NCBI GenBank assembly: GCA_963703285.1
Contig: OY969807.1
Span: forward strand, 1,024,001-1,088,000
DNA length: 64,000 nucleotides
Origin: an uncultured Nitrososphaerota archaeon
GTDB taxonomy: Archaea > Thermoproteota > Nitrososphaeria > Nitrososphaerales > Gagatemarchaeaceae
Direction: 5' to 3'
Below the pieces are notes generated by a model. It did no database searches. It was not told where the DNA came from and was given only the letters and a program-made list of their open reading frames with translations. Positions 1-26,398 of the stretch are shown here, one piece after another. Each line of letters starts with the position of its first letter. The first letter of the stretch is position 1. A program made the translations under genes and the position numbers.

Positions 1-434
1 CGGAGCCTATCTATCCGGCGACAAAGCTCCCCGATAGTCTTCGGCAGCTTTACAGCCATCCTTCCCATCTCTCAGAGCAAGAGTTGCGAGTCAACCAGAG
101 AATGATAGATGGGTTGAATTCCACTATCACGAAGCTTCTTTCCTACGATGGCGCAGAAGTCAAGACCAAGGACGCGGCGAGACGCGATGGCTACTACAGA
201 ACAAACATGGGCAAGTACTTCGTGGCAAACGGCGGCAGGACTCACGCGACTACGCTCCTCACGAGCCTGCAGAGCCAGCTCGCCGAGGCAACGAAGCTTG
301 CGCAGTCGAACCTCGGGTTCTTTGAGGTTCTGGAAATAGAGAGAGTGAAGTCTTCTGGTCCATTCGTCTACGACGTGTCCGTCCCCGACACGGAGAACTT
401 CATGGCTGGATTCGGCGGCGTTTTCTGTCACAAC
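1..434 (+). mobile_element. C-terminal part of an intein in the Walker A loop of the HerA-like ATPase
   Basis: Block F/G sequence VYDVSVPDTENFMAGFGGVFCHN ends at 434, followed by +1 Thr (ACC 435-437) of TGAGKS. Confidence 0.92.
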
Positions 435-22575: not shown

Positions 22576-23238
22576 CTAACCCTGAACCGTGCCGGTCAGG
22601 AGGACCAGATACTCGGTGGATCCCGATTGTATGTCCAGCGACAACGTTGCTGTGTTGCCGACGAAGCTGCCCCTGGCCGTTCCCTGCAGGATGAACGCGC
22701 CGGAGGTTGTTGTTGTTCCTTGTCCGGAGATGGATGACGCGGATGGGCTCATCTGGCCCGAGCCGGATGAGATGGTCGATGTCGTGCTGCCGACCACGAC
22801 GCCCCCTGATATGGAGAGGGTGTAGGCCTCGGTGAGGTTGCCGGTCACCGTGAACGTCAGCGAACCGGAAGCCGTTCCGTTCTCGCTGCGATTCCCGACG
22901 ACGAAGTACTGGCCGCTCGTGCTGGTGAAGGTGATCTTCGTCCCTACGGAGACGTCAGCTCTGGTCTGGAAGTTCCCGAAGCCTGGGCCTCCCTGTCCCA
23001 TGCCGCCTCCCTGAGAAGGAGGAAAGCCCATGCCGCCGGGTCCTTGGCCCACACAGTTGCCGATGCCCGAGATGCCCGAGCTAGAGCTCGAGGACGCTGT
23101 GGTCGATGTCGAGGACGTGGAGGTCGATGTCTGCGCTGTCGCTGCCAGGATGGATGGAGATGCGAGAAGGATTGCGATGATGCCTATGGCCGATGCTGTG
23201 ACAATCGCTGTTTTCGCGAACTTGGTTGTCATGTTCAA
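22576..23238 (-). CDS. Secreted Ser/Thr/Gly-rich hypothetical protein
   Basis: Signal peptide, S/T-rich and G/M/Q-rich low-complexity segments, beta-rich C-terminus. Confidence 0.75.
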   Translation of the reverse strand: MNMTTKFAKTAIVTASAIGIIAILLASPSILAATAQTSTSTSSTSTTASSSSSSGISGIGNCVGQGPGGMGFPPSQGGGMGQGGPGFGNFQTRADVSVGTKITFTSTSGQYFVVGNRSENGTASGSLTFTVTGNLTEAYTLSISGGVVVGSTTSTISSGSGQMSPSASSISGQGTTTTSGAFILQGTARGSFVGNTATLSLDIQSGSTEYLVLLTGTVQG

Positions 23239-23292: not shown

Positions 23293-23464
23293 GGTAGCTA
23301 ATCGATGCAAGAAGACCCCAGGATGAGCACGGAGGCATGCCCCTGCCGCGACCCCCGCGCATCGAGGAACGCTCTACGAGAAGCGCTGTGGGGAGTCGCG
23401 AGGGAGTCATACCAAAGAGATATTGCCCCCGGGTCGCCAGAGTGGCCGAGAGAAAATCGGCAAG

Positions 23465-25345
23465 ATGAAACCTCGCAAGAATGCCAAACCAAAAACCTCA
23501 GCTAAAGCTCCATCAACGGCAAGGGGCTTGGTTGCGACAACGAAGATGGGTCTCGGGGGAATCCGCGACAGTCCCGACCCGAGGGACCATTCGTATGTGC
23601 CTCCCGCCGACGTCCTGAGGAACCTTCCCCCGAAGTTAGACCTCAGGAAGCAGTTCCCTCCGGTCTACAACCAGGGTCAGATCAACAGCTGCCACGATTC
23701 GGAGACCGAAGTCCTGACAGACACTGGCTTCAAACTCTTCTCGGAGCTGAGTGGTTCGGAGTTACTCGCCACTGTCAATCCGAGTAACTCTGAGCTATCG
23801 TTCGAAAGGCCATCTAGATTGCTGAAGTTACGATACAAAGGGCCCATGGTCTGCGCTGAAAACTGGAGCCTGAATTTCAAGGTCACGCCGGAACACAAGA
23901 TGTTGGTTAGGAAGTGGGACGAGGCGAGGCGCAGACTCTCGAGTGAGTATACGCTCGTCGAAGCCGAGAGTCTCGGCTGGTACTGCGGGTTGATGAACCG
24001 CGTAATCTGGCGAGGCGACGCGGGGTCGTCCGAAAATTTCACCTTGCCAGGAGTGCTCCACAAGCACAAACCCCAGAGGGAGCCACTGACGGTGTCCATG
24101 GGCTCCTGGCTAAGGTTCCTTGGAATCTACCTCGCCGAAGGGACGATTTTGGAAGAAGAAGGTCAATACAAGATTCAGTTGGCGGCGAGCAAGATGAGGG
24201 AGAAGGAGTTCATACGGCAGGTCCTTTCAGACATCGGGCAGCACTACCTTGAGCTCGAGGATCGGTTCACATTCTCGAACCGTCGACTGTACGAGACTAT
24301 GGAAGGGCTCGGCCTGAGAGGGGTGCACGCCCCCAAGAAGTTCGTCCCGGATTTCGTATTCCACCAGAGTGCGCAGAACATCAAGGAGTTACTCCGTGGC
24401 CATTGGATGGGAGATGGGGGTGGAGACGATAACCGGCGAGCGCATTACACGTCTTCGACAAGACTCGCAGATGACCTCCAGCGCCTAGTATTCCTCTCTG
24501 GAAATGCAACGTCATGGACCTCAAGAGCTCAACAAGTGTCGGTGATGACCGACGGCAGGGTGATAGAGCCCGGGTATGACATGCAACGAGTTTCAGTGAG
24601 GGAGCAGAAGAACCTCTCAATCGTCAGAAAAGAGCAGATATTCACTGATGACTACGACGGCTATGTCTACTGCGCTGAGGTCCCCCGATTCCACACCCTC
24701 GTGACGCGTCGGCGCGGAAAGATACTCATTTCAGGAAACTGTACGGCAAACGCCATCGCGGCTGCGATGGAGTTCGACGCCATTAGCCAGGGCGTTAAGG
24801 AGGTCTTCACCCCCTCACGCCTTTTCGTCTACTACAACGAACGGGTCATGACGAACACTCAGGGCCAGGACTCCGGGGGACAAATCAGAGACGGGATAAA
24901 GAGCATAGCGAAGCAGGGAGACTGCCCCGAGGTCCACTGGCCCTACCTGGCCAAGATGGTGACCCAGGAACCTGCCAAGGGGTGCTACACCCGCGCCAAG
25001 AGTTTCACTGCGCTCGAGTACCAGAGGATGGGGCACAACCTCGACCACATGAAGGCCTGCCTCGCGTCGGGGTATCCGTTCGTCTTCGGCTTCGTCGTCT
25101 ACTCCAGCTTCGAAGGCAGCGCCGTCAAGCAGAGCGGGCACCTCGGCTTGCCGAAGAAGGGGGAGAAGATGGTCGGTCTCCACGCCGTTGTCGCGTGCGG
25201 GTACGACGACGCCAAGCGCTGGTTCATCGTAAGGAATTCGTGGGGAAGGCAATGGGGTCTGGAAGGCTACTTCACGATGCCCTACGAGTACCTTCTGGAT
25301 CCGAAGTTATCGCACGACTTCTGGACCATCCGCGTCGTCAGGTGA
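23465..25345 (+). CDS. C1A papain-family cysteine peptidase (xylellain-like), intein-containing
   Basis: Exteins PPVYNQGQINS | CTANAIAAA..PSRLFVYYNER..GLHAV..GYDD..IVRNSWG..WGLEGY give a complete Q/C/H/N set after splicing (276 aa). Confidence 0.93.
   Translation: MKPRKNAKPKTSAKAPSTARGLVATTKMGLGGIRDSPDPRDHSYVPPADVLRNLPPKLDLRKQFPPVYNQGQINSCHDSETEVLTDTGFKLFSELSGSELLATVNPSNSELSFERPSRLLKLRYKGPMVCAENWSLNFKVTPEHKMLVRKWDEARRRLSSEYTLVEAESLGWYCGLMNRVIWRGDAGSSENFTLPGVLHKHKPQREPLTVSMGSWLRFLGIYLAEGTILEEEGQYKIQLAASKMREKEFIRQVLSDIGQHYLELEDRFTFSNRRLYETMEGLGLRGVHAPKKFVPDFVFHQSAQNIKELLRGHWMGDGGGDDNRRAHYTSSTRLADDLQRLVFLSGNATSWTSRAQQVSVMTDGRVIEPGYDMQRVSVREQKNLSIVRKEQIFTDDYDGYVYCAEVPRFHTLVTRRRGKILISGNCTANAIAAAMEFDAISQGVKEVFTPSRLFVYYNERVMTNTQGQDSGGQIRDGIKSIAKQGDCPEVHWPYLAKMVTQEPAKGCYTRAKSFTALEYQRMGHNLDHMKACLASGYPFVFGFVVYSSFEGSAVKQSGHLGLPKKGEKMVGLHAVVACGYDDAKRWFIVRNSWGRQWGLEGYFTMPYEYLLDPKLSHDFWTIRVVR
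23690..24739 (+). mobile_element. Intein with LAGLIDADG homing endonuclease (350 aa)
   Basis: Block A CHDSETEVLT, block B VTPEHKM, LAGLIDADG motifs FLGIYLAEG and LLRGHWMGDG, block F VYCAEVP, block G ISGN followed by +1 Cys. Confidence 0.93.
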
Positions 25346-25741
25346 ACGGCGCACACGAGGAACTAGTTCGGGGGAAACCCACCCTCTTGAGGAGAGAGGC
25401 GAATAGTGGGTCAGACCGAAGGCTGTCGAACCATCGCTCGACCTTGAGAGAGGACAGATACGGCGAGTGTTCCTCGAAACCCCTCTCGAGCCAGCTGAGC
25501 GCCCTTTCGCTCTCCCCGATGCAGGCGCACATCCCGGCTATCGCCACCGGAGGTACGTGACCCGCCCTCGCGGCTTCCTCCGTCTGAGCAAGGAGCCTCC
25601 GAGCGTGCTTAGGGCAGGGCCTTCGTTGCTCTGGGTCATCGCCGTGTAGCCCACGATGTCACTGAACATGACCGCGGCGAGCCTCCTCCTCGAACCGGAG
25701 TTCGGCGAAGAACCCGTGAGGTCCCGGTCGTCGACGGTCAT
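25338..25741 (-). pseudogene. Internally deleted class III nucleotide cyclase/TPR protein remnant
   Basis: N-terminal RRLAAVMFSDIVGYTAM (25538..25741) abuts C-terminal ALSWLERGFEE..LKVERWFDSLRSDPLF (25338..25547) in another frame; the middle is missing. Confidence 0.75.
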
Positions 25742-25939
25742 GTAGCAGAACGCAGGAACCTGCGCCGTGATTCAAGCCTGATGAAGAGTCCAGCGATTCT
25801 CCGCGTGCGTCCCCGGGGTGCTCTCGGTAGTCCCCCTTGGGTCGTCGCTGCCTCCGACGGATGCGCTGTTAGAACACGGGAAGCGGACCTCGCGAGCCTT
25901 TTAGACCTCACCGACCCAATCTTTGACGGCGTAACCAAG

Positions 25940-26398
25940 ATGTCGACCAACGAAAATCCTTACGGGGCGTTCAACTTCACGGTCTCGATCAGCGGAGTCC
26001 CCGCCGCAGATTTTGCAGAGTGCGTCCTCCCGGCCGTCTCCATAGATGCCATAGAGTACAGGCAGGGCTCGGACTCCGAAGAGAGCGTCCACAAGCTACC
26101 CGGCCTTGTTAGGTATGGTCACCTTGTCCTTAAGAGGGGCATCGCGAGTTCGGCAGGCTCTCTTGCCCTCTGGGACTGGTTCTCAGGATTCGTCCAGGGC
26201 AATGGGACGCTGGCAACGATGACGGTCACCCTTCTCGATCGTGCGAGGGTACCGGTCTTCCAGTGGGCATTCACGAACGCGTGGCCCGTGAAGTACGAGA
26301 CGCCGGTTCTGAACGGGAAGACAAGCACGCTTGCCATTGAGACCCTGGAGGTCTCGGTGGAGGGAATGAAGTTCACGGCCCTCGGCCAGGGCCCCTAG
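25940..26398 (+). CDS. Phage T4 gp19-like / contractile injection system tail tube protein
   Basis: NPYGAFNFTVSI..IEYRQG..KLPGLVRYGHLVLKRGI..LWDW..TLLD..WAFTNAWPVKY..LAIETLE. Confidence 0.9.
   Translation: MSTNENPYGAFNFTVSISGVPAADFAECVLPAVSIDAIEYRQGSDSEESVHKLPGLVRYGHLVLKRGIASSAGSLALWDWFSGFVQGNGTLATMTVTLLDRARVPVFQWAFTNAWPVKYETPVLNGKTSTLAIETLEVSVEGMKFTALGQGP

What the first reader, a model, noticed from the sequence alone, without database searches (positions are those of the whole stretch)
23465..25345. Papain-family protease whose catalytic cysteine is the intein +1 nucleophile
Seen: NQGQINS-[CHDSETEV...350 aa...ISGN]-CTANA. The intein separates the oxyanion-hole Gln from the catalytic Cys, and that same Cys must perform transesterification during splicing. 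The precursor should therefore be inactive until spliced, and Cys oxidation or metal binding would block both reactions. Known: most inteins sit in replication, repair or nucleotide-metabolism proteins, so an apparently non-essential C1A peptidase is an atypical host. The intein has a penultimate Gly rather than His, two LAGLIDADG motifs, and looks more AT-rich than its exteins by eye, suggesting recent homing. Inference: it could act as a conditional, splicing-based zymogen switch.
Basis: partly seen in the sequence, partly recalled or inferred. Interest (0 to 1): 0.85.

Follow-up and report, generated by a model that had tools for sequence, protein, structure and literature searches.

The report
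Mobile intein splitting archaeal papain-type protease
A self-splicing, mobile protein insert (an intein with its own homing nuclease) sits directly in front of the active-site cysteine of a papain-type protease in a soil archaeon; it is real and widespread, but it behaves like an optional selfish element and not like a built-in switch.

Summary
ORF 23423..25345 (+) encodes a xylellain-like C1 (papain-family) peptidase. A 350-aa insert (window 23690..24739) interrupts it between Ser89 and the catalytic Cys (24740..24742). The insert is a genuine intein with a nested LAGLIDADG endonuclease: a family profile hits PI-PkoII at 1.4e-17, and the AF2 model (pLDDT 92) matches the TliVMA, PI-SceI and PI-PfuI inteins.

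It is one copy of a large allele family at this site, found in Archaea, Bacteria and viral contigs. In the window's genus, 3 of 12 genomes with the peptidase carry the intein at this site; 8 have only intein-free copies, with nearly the same target DNA. One metagenomic pair has identical exteins with and without exactly 350 aa. The endonuclease is under purifying selection.

Penultimate Gly and a block-F Cys are traits of the whole intein clade, not defects. The low G+C is shared by 8 of 9 other inteins in this genome, and synonymous sites are saturated, so recent homing is not shown.

The precursor must be inactive until spliced. A regulated zymogen switch is untested, and the optional distribution argues against it. 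This scan has met the same arrangement before on other DNA. My literature searches found no description of it.

The parts
23423..25345 (+). Whole precursor ORF, stop included.
23528..23689 (+). N-extein: N-terminal segment of a xylellain-like C1 peptidase, ending ...VYNQGQINS. The oxyanion-hole Gln84 lies at 23672..23674.
   Evidence: Aligns to 3ois residues 28-78. Gln84 is kept in 118 of 120 rows; the other 2 are gaps.
23690..24739 (+). Intein, 350 aa: Hint splicing domain with a nested LAGLIDADG homing endonuclease.
   Evidence: Profile hits PI-PkoII at 1.4e-17 and TliVMA at 1.6e-11. AF2 model has pLDDT 92.2, pTM 0.90. Foldseek top hits are 7qsu, 2cw7, 1vde and 1dq3.
23690..23692 (+). Intein Cys1 (block A nucleophile), in CHDSETEVLT.
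   Evidence: Cys in 118 of 120 rows, 2 gaps, and in 160 of 160 clade domains.
23885..23896 (+). Block B TPEH (Thr155, His158).
   Evidence: T and H each in 118 of 120 rows, 2 gaps. His in 160 of 160 clade domains.
24110..24145 (+). LAGLIDADG motif 1 (LRFLGIYLAEGT), acidic residue Glu239.
   Evidence: 113 Glu + 5 Asp in 120 rows. Aligns to the PI-PkoII endonuclease core.
24389..24421 (+). LAGLIDADG motif 2 (LLRGHWMGDGG), acidic residue Asp331.
   Evidence: Asp in 119 of 120 rows.
24665..24703 (+). Block F (VYCAEVPRFHTLV): Cys417 at the position where most inteins have Asp (F:4), and His424.
   Evidence: Cys417 in 120 of 120 rows, His424 in 118 of 120. Cys417 aligns to the Asp of VYDLSV in PI-PkoII. 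F:4 Cys in 147 of 160 clade domains.
24722..24739 (+). Block G (ILISGN): penultimate Gly438, terminal Asn439.
   Evidence: Gly in 119 of 120 rows, Asn in 120 of 120.
24740..24742 (+). +1 Cys440. It is both the splicing nucleophile of the C-extein and the catalytic Cys of the peptidase.
   Evidence: Cys in 120 of 120 rows. Alignments to 3ois and cathepsin K.
24740..25342 (+). C-extein: the body of the C1 peptidase, with catalytic His587 (25181..25183) and Asn605 (25235..25237).
   Evidence: Pfam PF00112, 41.7 bits against a cut-off of 20.7. 3ois domain E 7.6e-55.

Best explanation
The insert is a splicing-competent class-1-type intein with a nested LAGLIDADG homing endonuclease. It sits in a chromosomal, cytoplasmic-looking, xylellain-like papain-family (C1) peptidase gene of a Nitrososphaerota (Thaumarchaeota) soil archaeon, immediately before the codon of the catalytic cysteine.

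Inferred mechanism:
1. Cys90 makes the N-S acyl shift at Ser89.
2. Cys440, the future protease nucleophile, takes over the N-extein by transesterification.
3. Asn439 cyclises and frees the intein.
4. An S-N shift restores ...NQGQINS-CTANA..., placing the oxyanion Gln and the catalytic Cys in one active site.

The precursor cannot be an active protease. That follows from where the element sits, not from a regulatory design. The free intein, as a LAGLIDADG endonuclease, cuts intein-free alleles at the conserved ...AACAGC|TG.AC... site and copies itself in (homing).

The element belongs to a large clade that is common in viral contigs and recurs at this site in Archaea and Bacteria. It is optional for the host.

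Shown: anatomy, fold, family, conservation, patchy distribution, intein-plus and intein-minus alleles. Inferred: splicing, endonuclease activity, homing.
For: Identity of the insert:
- Precise in-frame interruption of a motif that is continuous in 3ois and in intein-free relatives.
- Intein family profile hits solved inteins: PI-PkoII 1.4e-17, TliVMA 1.6e-11, AceL NrdHF 2.4e-7.
- AF2 model pLDDT 92.2, matching TliVMA, PI-PkoII, PI-SceI, PI-PfuI and I-DmoI.
- Splicing residues are near-invariant in 120 aligned relatives: Cys1, TxxH, Asn, +1 Cys.

Endonuclease maintained:
- Acidic LAGLIDADG residues are kept in 118 and 119 of 120 rows.
- dN/dS of the endonuclease part is 0.05-0.08 against two same-genus copies, though dS is saturated.

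Optional and mobile:
- Of the 22 other genomes of the genus, 11 have the peptidase. 2 carry this intein (one of them also holds a second copy that is empty at this site), 8 have only intein-free copies, and 1 has an empty site here with a different intein elsewhere in the gene.
- Empty sites differ from the window's flanks by a few mostly synonymous bases.
- The C-extein tree of 230 rows (115 with, 115 without) needs at least 10 gains or losses, 8 forced by well-supported branches. The window's closest rows are a mix of both states.
- P0005 (603 aa) and P0181 (253 aa) have identical exteins (52 + 201 aa) and differ by exactly the 350-aa insert. Both sit in clusters seen on several contigs.

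Spread:
- Named genomes with the intein at this site include Nitrososphaerota MAGs, Chloroflexia, Abditibacterium, Omnitrophica, Pseudonocardiaceae and Arthrobacter terricola JH1-1.
- 160 relatives in viral contigs. Of the 80 kept, 12 are C1 peptidases split at this Cys.

The peptidase itself was not found in 11 of the 22 other genus genomes, many of them incomplete.
Against: - No experiment shows splicing, protease activity or DNA cleavage.
- No RNA or protein data.
- The curated Pfam models miss the gathering score: Intein_splicing 16.9 bits against 35.8, LAGLIDADG_3 14 against 22.5. The identification rests on a family profile and a predicted fold.
- dS is saturated, so dN/dS values are rough.
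- The intein is more conserved than the C-extein in 98 of 108 comparisons. A host-beneficial role could also produce that. The sample was chosen by total score, which biases this comparison.
- The tree is FastTree only, on the top hits of two searches.
- Purifying selection on the endonuclease does not prove that it still homes.
Confidence: 0.8

Rival explanations
1. Conditional zymogen switch. Splicing, and so protease activation, is gated by redox state, metals, pH or temperature through a three-thiol centre: Cys1, block-F Cys417 and catalytic Cys440. The lineages that keep the intein use it as a post-translational regulator.
For: - The active site is physically split, so the precursor must be inactive.
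- Three conserved cysteines lie at or near the splice centre.
- Conditional splicing by oxidation or zinc is reported for mycobacterial DnaB inteins (PMC6195587, PMC7360933; search listings and abstract starts only) and reviewed in PMC10663303 (passages).
- The intein is more conserved than its extein in 98 of 108 comparisons.
- The intein is under strong purifying selection.
Against: - 8 same-genus genomes have only intein-free copies, including the closest C-extein at 79% identity.
- Identical exteins exist with and without the intein.
- At least 10 gains or losses on the extein tree.
- The same clade signature occurs in 100 of 160 domains in unrelated host proteins, so it is not tailored to this protease.
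- Penultimate Gly does not imply slow splicing (Kelley 2016).
- Xylellain-type enzymes already carry an N-terminal segment; that it covers the active site is recalled, not tested here.
Confidence: 0.12
2. Domesticated or hybrid-mechanism intein. The invariant block-F Cys acts as a nucleophile, as in class 3, even though Cys1 is present. Alternatively, the endonuclease has been retained for a host function other than homing.
For: - F:4 Cys in 120 of 120 relatives and in 147 of 160 clade domains.
- Tori et al. [quoted passage not shown]
- The endonuclease is under purifying selection.
Against: - Cys1 and the Thr/His of block B, which class 1 uses, are invariant.
- The class 3 Trp at B:12 is Met here and the Thr at G:5 is Ser.
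- Cys is simply the second commonest residue at F:4 (Mills et al. 2014, passages).
- The patchy distribution fits homing.
Confidence: 0.05
3. Dead insertion: the intein no longer splices and the peptidase gene is a functionless relic.
For: - The peptidase is dispensable in the genus.
- Decayed copies exist elsewhere. Nocardia miyunensis ends in Gly-Ser with a truncated C-extein. G009:C2 has fragments with TGA stops.
Against: - The frame is open over 640 codons.
- All splicing residues and the protease Gln, Cys, His and Asn are intact.
- dN/dS is 0.06-0.10 in the intein and 0.09-0.22 in the C-extein.
Confidence: 0.03

Closest known systems
Class-1 inteins with a nested LAGLIDADG endonuclease: TliVMA/PhoVMA (7qsu, 7qss, 7qst), PI-PkoII (2cw7), PI-SceI (1vde), PI-PfuI (1dq3)
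   Same: Hint splicing domain plus a double-motif LAGLIDADG domain. Cys1, block B TxxH, terminal Asn and a +1 nucleophile. Best profile and fold matches.
   Different: Only 8-14% identity in the structural alignments. Block F has Cys where PI-PkoII has Asp. Penultimate Gly instead of His. The host is a protease and not a V-ATPase or a polymerase.
Mycobacteriophage Bethlehem gp51 (RDF) intein and other phage class-1 inteins without a penultimate His (Kelley et al. 2016, PMC5050341; passages)
   Same: Class 1 with penultimate Gly. The clade has a strong phage connection: 160 relatives in viral contigs.
   Different: Different host protein. Relatedness to that intein was not tested here.
Class 3 (WCT) inteins, e.g. 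MP-Be DnaB (Tori et al. 2010, PMC2807308; passages)
   Same: Cys at block F position 4.
   Different: This intein has Cys1 and a canonical TxxH. It has Met, not Trp, at B:12 and Ser, not Thr, at G:5. It has Cys at +1, whereas class 3 mostly has Ser or Thr.
Inteins in other proteases: archaeal LonB (10 inteins in Table 2 of Novikova et al. 2016); chloroplast ClpP of Chlamydomonas eugametos (Wang & Liu 1997; only the reference title was seen; its penultimate Gly is recalled)
   Same: A protease as host. ClpP also lacks the penultimate His (recalled).
   Different: Those are ATP-dependent or Clp-type proteases. In those cases the intein +1 residue is not reported, to my knowledge, to be the protease's catalytic nucleophile.
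Xylellain, the cysteine protease of Xylella fastidiosa (PDB 3ois): the host enzyme's closest solved relative
   Same: E 4.7e-62 over both exteins. Same QG..GSCTANA, GGHAV and NSWG motifs.
   Different: 3ois has no intein. The biochemical role of the archaeal enzyme is unknown.
Conditional protein splicing inteins: M. smegmatis DnaBi1 (oxidative stress, zinc), Pho RadA (PMC6195587, PMC7360933, listings and abstract starts; PMC10663303, passages)
   Same: Catalytic cysteines that could be oxidised or bind metal. The host protein is inactive until splicing.
   Different: Conditionality was shown by experiment there. Here it is only a possibility, and the element is optional among close relatives.

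Membership tests
Intein (class 1) | In-frame insertion at a site that is continuous in homologues | tested here: met
   3ois and intein-free relatives read QG..(G/N)SC(T)ANA without a break. P0005 and P0181 differ by exactly 350 aa.
Intein (class 1) | Hint-fold splicing domain with N-terminal Cys/Ser and block B Thr-x-x-His | tested here: met
   Cys1 and T155/H158 in 118 of 120 rows, 2 gaps. Profile and fold matches to solved inteins.
Intein (class 1) | C-terminal Asn followed by Cys/Ser/Thr | tested here: met
   Asn439 and Cys440 in 120 of 120 rows.
Intein (class 1) | Usual assisting residues: block F Asp (F:4) and penultimate His (G:6) | tested here: not met
   Cys417 and Gly438 instead. Both are documented variants and are not required: F:4 is Asp, then Cys, then Trp in frequency, and a penultimate-Gly intein splices.
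Intein (class 1) | Curated Pfam model PF14890 above its gathering score | tested here: not met
   16.9 bits against a cut-off of 35.8. Some relatives carry PF14890 or PF14528 in the precomputed annotation.
Intein (class 1) | Protein splicing demonstrated | not testable with these tools
   Needs expression of the precursor.
Class 3 intein | No N-terminal nucleophile; Trp (B:12), Cys (F:4), Thr (G:5) triplet | tested here: not met
   Cys1 is present. B:12 is Met, F:4 is Cys and G:5 is Ser. Definition taken from Tori 2010.
LAGLIDADG homing endonuclease | Two LAGLIDADG helices, each with a conserved acidic residue, in an I-DmoI/PI-SceI-like fold | tested here: met
   Glu239 (113 E + 5 D) and Asp331 (119) of 120 rows. 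Foldseek matches to PI-SceI and I-DmoI. Profile alignment to the PI-PkoII core.
LAGLIDADG homing endonuclease | Site-specific cleavage of the intein-free allele | not testable with these tools
   Indirect only: intein-plus and intein-minus alleles with identical exteins and purifying selection.
Papain family (Peptidase C1, PF00112): the host | Pfam model above its gathering score | tested here: met
   41.7 bits against 20.7, on residues 484-620. It is the only PF00112 match in the genome.
Papain family (Peptidase C1, PF00112): the host | Oxyanion Gln and catalytic Cys, His and Asn present after splicing | tested here: met
   Gln84, Cys440, His587 and Asn605 align to the motifs of 3ois, cathepsins and procerain.
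Papain family (Peptidase C1, PF00112): the host | Peptidase activity | not testable with these tools
   Needs an assay of the spliced protein.

The most novel reading that the evidence does not exclude
In the lineages that keep it, the intein works as a thiol-based maturation gate. Cys1, the clade-specific block-F Cys and the protease's own catalytic Cys form a three-thiol centre. Its oxidation or metal binding would reversibly stall splicing, so the protease appears only under reducing, metal-poor conditions. The same clade signature (Cys1 / TxxH / F:4 Cys / Gly-Asn) might also mark a hybrid class 1/class 3 chemistry.
Probability: 0.12. Interest if true: 0.75.

Novelty: new member of a known kind. 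Interest (0 to 1): 0.45.

Why it matters
Inteins are known mostly from replication, repair and nucleotide-metabolism proteins, and are said to be rarely inserted at catalytic residues (Novikova et al. 2016). Here a large, conserved intein allele family uses the catalytic nucleophile of a simple hydrolase as its +1 splicing nucleophile.

The same peptidase family also carries other inteins next to its catalytic His and Asn. Natural intein-plus and intein-minus alleles with identical exteins exist.

This gives a convenient model for three questions:
- Is splicing conditional? The read-out is simple protease activity.
- Is homing active? The empty sites are known.
- What do the block-F Cys and the Gly-Asn end do in a big, phage-linked intein clade?

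The papain-family review I checked does not mention inteins, and my literature searches found no description. The kind of element is ordinary, and this scan has already met the same arrangement on other DNA.

Tried and rejected
- Sequencing runs. No RNA holder was listed. Four soil-metagenome runs of one study, kept as contigs, were laid on 23400..25400. Contigs bridge the N junction (X4 record 15) and the C junction (X1 record 4, X2 record 10). No joint skips the intein. The runs may include the window's own source and coverage is thin, so this says nothing about intein-free alleles in that population.
- G+C as a sign of recent arrival: rejected. Genome-wide, 9.4% of 1050-nt windows are G+C-poorer than the intein, and 8 of 9 other inteins in the genome are also poorer than their flanks.
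- Recent transfer as the reason the intein is more conserved than the extein: rejected for same-genus copies, because dS is 1.6-2.3.
- Mobile island or prophage context: not seen. Neighbours are an S15 peptidase, an amino-acid permease, an aldehyde dehydrogenase, a pyruvoyl arginine decarboxylase and an Lrp/AsnC regulator, plus one lone T4 gp19-like gene.
- BIL/Hint domain without splicing: rejected, because of the terminal Asn, the +1 Cys and the nested endonuclease.
- Earlier-findings look-ups by place in this genome returned nothing.
- Two paper-reading runs failed on term format and were repeated with valid terms.
- My first motif rule for clade members missed most rows. I replaced it with an HMM alignment.
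- Literature searches for this arrangement found none. Subscription journals and bioRxiv supplements were not searchable, including the supplementary tables of 10.1101/2025.01.02.630785, which may list host proteins.
Full report
**1. The observation**

Window 23423..25345 (+) is one open frame of 640 codons. It reads ...PPVYNQGQINS | CHDSETEVLT ... KILISGN | CTANAIAAAMEF....

- The insert is residues 90-439 of that frame: 350 aa, window 23690..24739.
- The next residue, Cys440, lies at 24740..24742.
The database record of the same gene (P0002) starts at TTG 23528 and has 605 aa. The true start is open.

The closest solved protein, the Xylella cysteine protease 3ois, aligns to the N-extein up to the junction and resumes exactly at the C-extein (E 4.7e-62). 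Its own sequence reads QGRIGSCTANA without a break.

An intein-free relative (P0123) aligns over its whole length with 3ois, cathepsin K, cathepsin H and procerain:
- The Gln and Cys of NQGQVNSC pair with NQGQCGSC.
- GLHAV pairs with NHAV.
- NSWG pairs with NSWG.

By established knowledge of papain (recalled), these are the oxyanion Gln, the catalytic Cys, His and Asn.

**2. The insert is an intein with a homing endonuclease**

The curated models alone are weak. Pfam Intein_splicing scores 16.9 bits against a cut-off of 35.8, and LAGLIDADG_3 scores 14 against 22.5. NCBIfam matches only the intein parts of intein-bearing PolD, DnaB and RpoA'' models.

A profile of 14 copies of the insert alone (A2) finds solved inteins:
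- PI-PkoII at 1.4e-17
- TliVMA at 1.6e-11
- AceL NrdHF at 2.4e-7

An AlphaFold2 model from that alignment has mean pLDDT 92.2 and pTM 0.90. Foldseek ranks the TliVMA, PI-PkoII, PI-SceI and PI-PfuI inteins first (E 7e-16 to 3e-10), followed by I-DmoI for the endonuclease part.

I aligned 120 rows: the window protein plus 119 of the 120 listed long relatives, leaving out its own record P0002. The splicing residues are almost invariant:

| Residue | Rows of 120 |
|---|---|
| Cys1 | 118 (2 gaps) |
| Thr155 (block B) | 118 (2 gaps) |
| His158 (block B) | 118 (2 gaps) |
| His424 (block F) | 118 |
| Asn439 | 120 |
| Cys440 | 120 |
| Glu239 (LAGLIDADG 1) | 113 Glu + 5 Asp |
| Asp331 (LAGLIDADG 2) | 119 |

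**3. Two unusual residues are traits of the clade, not defects**

- Gly438 (penultimate) is found in 119 of 120 rows.
- Cys417 is found in 120 of 120 rows. It sits where PI-PkoII has the block-F Asp.

Searching the insert alone against 1.84 billion representatives gave 7256 proteins at E <= 1e-3, 3916 at <= 1e-10 and 265 at <= 1e-30. I aligned the best 150 to the A2 profile. This gave 160 complete intein domains in 124 proteins:

| Feature | Domains of 160 |
|---|---|
| Cys1 | 160 |
| Block B His | 160 |
| F:4 Cys | 147 |
| Penultimate Gly | 156 |
| Terminal Asn | 159 |

Their hosts, by my flanking-motif rule:

| Host and site | Domains of 160 |
|---|---|
| C1 peptidase, before the catalytic Cys | 35 |
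| C1 peptidase, one residue earlier (...G | intein | SC...) | 23 |
| C1 peptidase, after NSWG | 2 |
| Other proteins | 100 |

Comparison with the literature:
- Mills et al. 2014 (passages) state that F:4 is most commonly Asp, then Cys, then Trp.
- Tori et al. 2010 (passages) tie F:4 Cys to class 3 inteins. Class 3 also lacks an N-terminal nucleophile and has Trp at B:12 and Thr at G:5. Here these are Cys1, Met and Ser, so class 3 membership is not met.
- Kelley et al. 2016 (passages) show that a phage intein with penultimate Gly splices, and that changing Gly to His slows it.

The Gly therefore gives no reason to expect poor or conditional splicing.

**4. Distribution**

The word-indexed protein search found 363 relatives of 352-1120 aa, most near 600 aa and so intein-bearing. 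It found 5419 shorter relatives of the C-extein, typically 251-280 aa and intein-free; the best is 80% identical.

Named genomes with the intein at this site:
- Three Nitrososphaerota MAGs: Ca. Gagatemarchaeum stordalenia, a 'Thaumarchaeota archaeon' and a 'Nitrososphaerales archaeon' (71-79% intein identity)
- A Chloroflexia MAG
- An Abditibacterium MAG
- An Omnitrophica MAG
- A Pseudonocardiaceae MAG
- The cultured Arthrobacter terricola JH1-1
- A decayed copy in Nocardia miyunensis

Viral contigs hold 160 relatives of the intein. Of the 80 kept, my motif rule assigns 12 to C1 peptidases split at this Cys, 55 to other hosts and 13 to neither.

In the window's own genus (22 other species genomes, many incomplete), the peptidase was found in 11:

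| State in the genus | Genomes |
|---|---|
| This intein at this site | G001, G003 |
| Only intein-free copies | G002, G004, G006, G009, G010, G014, G015, G022 |
| This site empty, HNH-type intein at ...WGK | C...VHN | SGYF | G021:C9, and a second copy G003:C84 |

The empty sites read TACAACCAGGG.CAG.T.AACAGC|TG.AC.., almost the same as the window's flanks. The whole genome has a single PF00112 match.

**5. Evidence for mobility**

A FastTree of C-exteins used 230 rows: 115 with the intein and 115 without. I dropped 5 long rows (four with a second intein, one without the motif) and 5 short rows without the motif. The tree needs at least 10 changes of state, 8 of them forced by well-supported branches, against a shuffled mean of 77. 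The window's nearest rows are a mixture: P0011 with the intein, P0122 and P0123 without.

P0005 (603 aa) and P0181 (253 aa) have identical N-exteins (52 aa) and C-exteins (201 aa). They differ by exactly the 350-aa insert. Their clusters hold 3 and 4 members respectively, from several contigs.

Against two same-genus copies, dN/dS values are as follows:

| Region | dN/dS |
|---|---|
| Whole intein | 0.06-0.10 |
| Endonuclease part | 0.05-0.08 |
| C-extein | 0.09-0.22 |

dS is 1.6-2.3 for the intein, which is saturated, so these are rough.

The intein is more conserved than the C-extein in 98 of 108 comparisons with the window (11 of 119 rows dropped for lack of clean junctions). The two identities are uncorrelated (rho 0.08). 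The sample was chosen by total score, which biases this.

Together this fits a long-lived homing element that keeps re-invading empty alleles. It does not fit a recent arrival in this genome.

**6. The composition argument**

The intein has 54.6% G+C and a GC3 of 0.68. The C-extein has 60.2% and 0.84. The genome has 60.6%. However, 9.4% of all 1050-nt windows of the genome are lower still. Of 9 other inteins in this genome (located), 8 are also G+C-poorer than their flanks.

**7. How it most likely works**

Shown:
- The anatomy and the fold.
- The conservation of every residue that class 1 splicing needs.
- An intact protease triad.
- The optional, patchy distribution.

Inferred:
1. N-S acyl shift at Ser89-Cys90.
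2. Transesterification to Cys440.
3. Cyclisation of Asn439, possibly helped by the block-F His, as Kelley 2016 discuss for inteins without the penultimate His.
4. S-N shift giving ...NQGQINSCTANA...
5. The free intein then cuts intein-free alleles at the conserved site.

The precursor cannot be an active protease because its oxyanion Gln and its nucleophile are 350 residues apart. That follows from where inteins can survive: conserved motifs that offer a Cys, Ser or Thr. It needs no regulatory purpose.

The switch idea remains possible. Three conserved thiols sit at the splice centre, and redox- and zinc-sensitive inteins are known (listings and abstract starts of PMC6195587 and PMC7360933; passages of PMC10663303). 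Nothing here requires it, and the intein-free close relatives argue against a need for it.

**8. Comparison with what is known, and novelty**

Novikova et al. 2016 (passages):
- Report the concentration of inteins in replication and related proteins.
- List LonB and mention ClpP among protease hosts.

The 2023 papain-family survey PMC10380794 has no occurrence of 'intein'. Full-text searches for inteins with papain, cysteine protease, peptidase C1, zymogen or Thaumarchaeota found no description of this arrangement. The main text of the 2025 actinophage intein preprint has no occurrence of protease, peptidase or papain; its supplements were not readable.

Automatic annotations do label a few of these proteins 'intein/homing endonuclease'. 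Earlier agents of this scan reported the same arrangement on other DNA: phages, an Omnitrophota bacterium and an Asgard archaeon. They reached the same reading. I read those notes after forming mine. My viral-contig scan partly confirms their phage link.

I file this as a new member of a known kind: an ordinary type of mobile intein in an unusual and, as far as I could search, undescribed host and site.

**9. Context**

The neighbours are ordinary chromosomal genes: an S15 peptidase, an amino-acid permease, an aldehyde dehydrogenase, a pyruvoyl arginine decarboxylase and an Lrp/AsnC regulator. There is also one lone T4 gp19-like tail-tube gene downstream, which G001 also has next to its copy. 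The genome is intein-rich.

Noticed in passing
L108 (G021:C9) and L109 (G003:C84); proteins P0010, P0038: The same peptidase family carries a second, unrelated intein about 8 residues after the catalytic Asn (...NSWGxxWGK | CL..T.ISLLDG ... VFVHN | SGYF). It has a canonical Asp in block F, a His-Asn end and an HNH-like segment. In G021 and in a second copy in G003 it occurs with the catalytic-Cys site empty.
   Followed up: partly
proteins P0075, P0096: A third insertion point three residues after the catalytic His (GGHAV | CFT.DTK..LLDG ... VFVHN | CAVGY(D/N)D), present together with the catalytic-Cys intein (979- and 1023-aa proteins). Two further representatives (P0277, P0288) carry a clade member directly after NSWG. 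All three catalytic-triad motifs of this family are therefore intein landing sites.
   Followed up: partly
proteins P0030, P0039, P0045, P0067, P0073, P0097, P0107, P0113; locus L012: Register shift. In 8 of the 120 listed long relatives and in a Woesearchaeota MAG, the same intein sits one residue earlier (...QG.LG | intein | SC...). Ser, not the catalytic Cys, is then the +1 nucleophile. 23 of 160 clade domains show this register.
   Followed up: partly
proteins P0005 and P0181: A natural intein-plus/intein-minus pair with 100% identical exteins (52 + 201 aa): a ready-made pair for homing and splicing experiments.
   Followed up: yes
window 1..434 (G000:C1:1022884-1024434) and eight other places in the genome: The genome is intein-rich. 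Pfam Intein_splicing matches fall in about nine other long ORFs, one holding two inteins. One intein-bearing 1139-aa ORF ends in the first 434 bases of this window. The hosts were not identified.
   Followed up: no
window 25781..26398 (+): A lone T4 gp19-like tail-tube gene (PF06841, 1.6e-32) directly downstream of the peptidase, with no other tail genes among the neighbours scanned. A 57%-identical copy lies next to the peptidase gene in G001 (L017).
   Followed up: partly
L010 (Nocardia miyunensis NBRC 108239); G009:C2:609939-610548: Decaying copies. The Nocardia intein ends Gly-Ser instead of Gly-Asn, has Ser at the block-F Cys position, and its C-extein stops after 16 residues. G009 holds peptidase fragments with TGA stops beside an intact intein-free copy.
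   Followed up: no
window 22576..23238 (-): A 220-aa Ser/Thr/Gly-rich ORF with a hydrophobic N-terminus and no Pfam match, between the arginine decarboxylase gene and the peptidase gene.
   Followed up: no
proteins P0269-P0356 (representatives of 1000-3700 aa): Members of the same Cys1 / F:4-Cys / Gly-Asn intein clade occur two to three (up to seven matched stretches) per protein in giant proteins. Their flanks look like RNA-polymerase motifs (..GDK. | intein | S.R.G) and helicase or terminase DE(A) motifs. The hosts were not identified.
   Followed up: no
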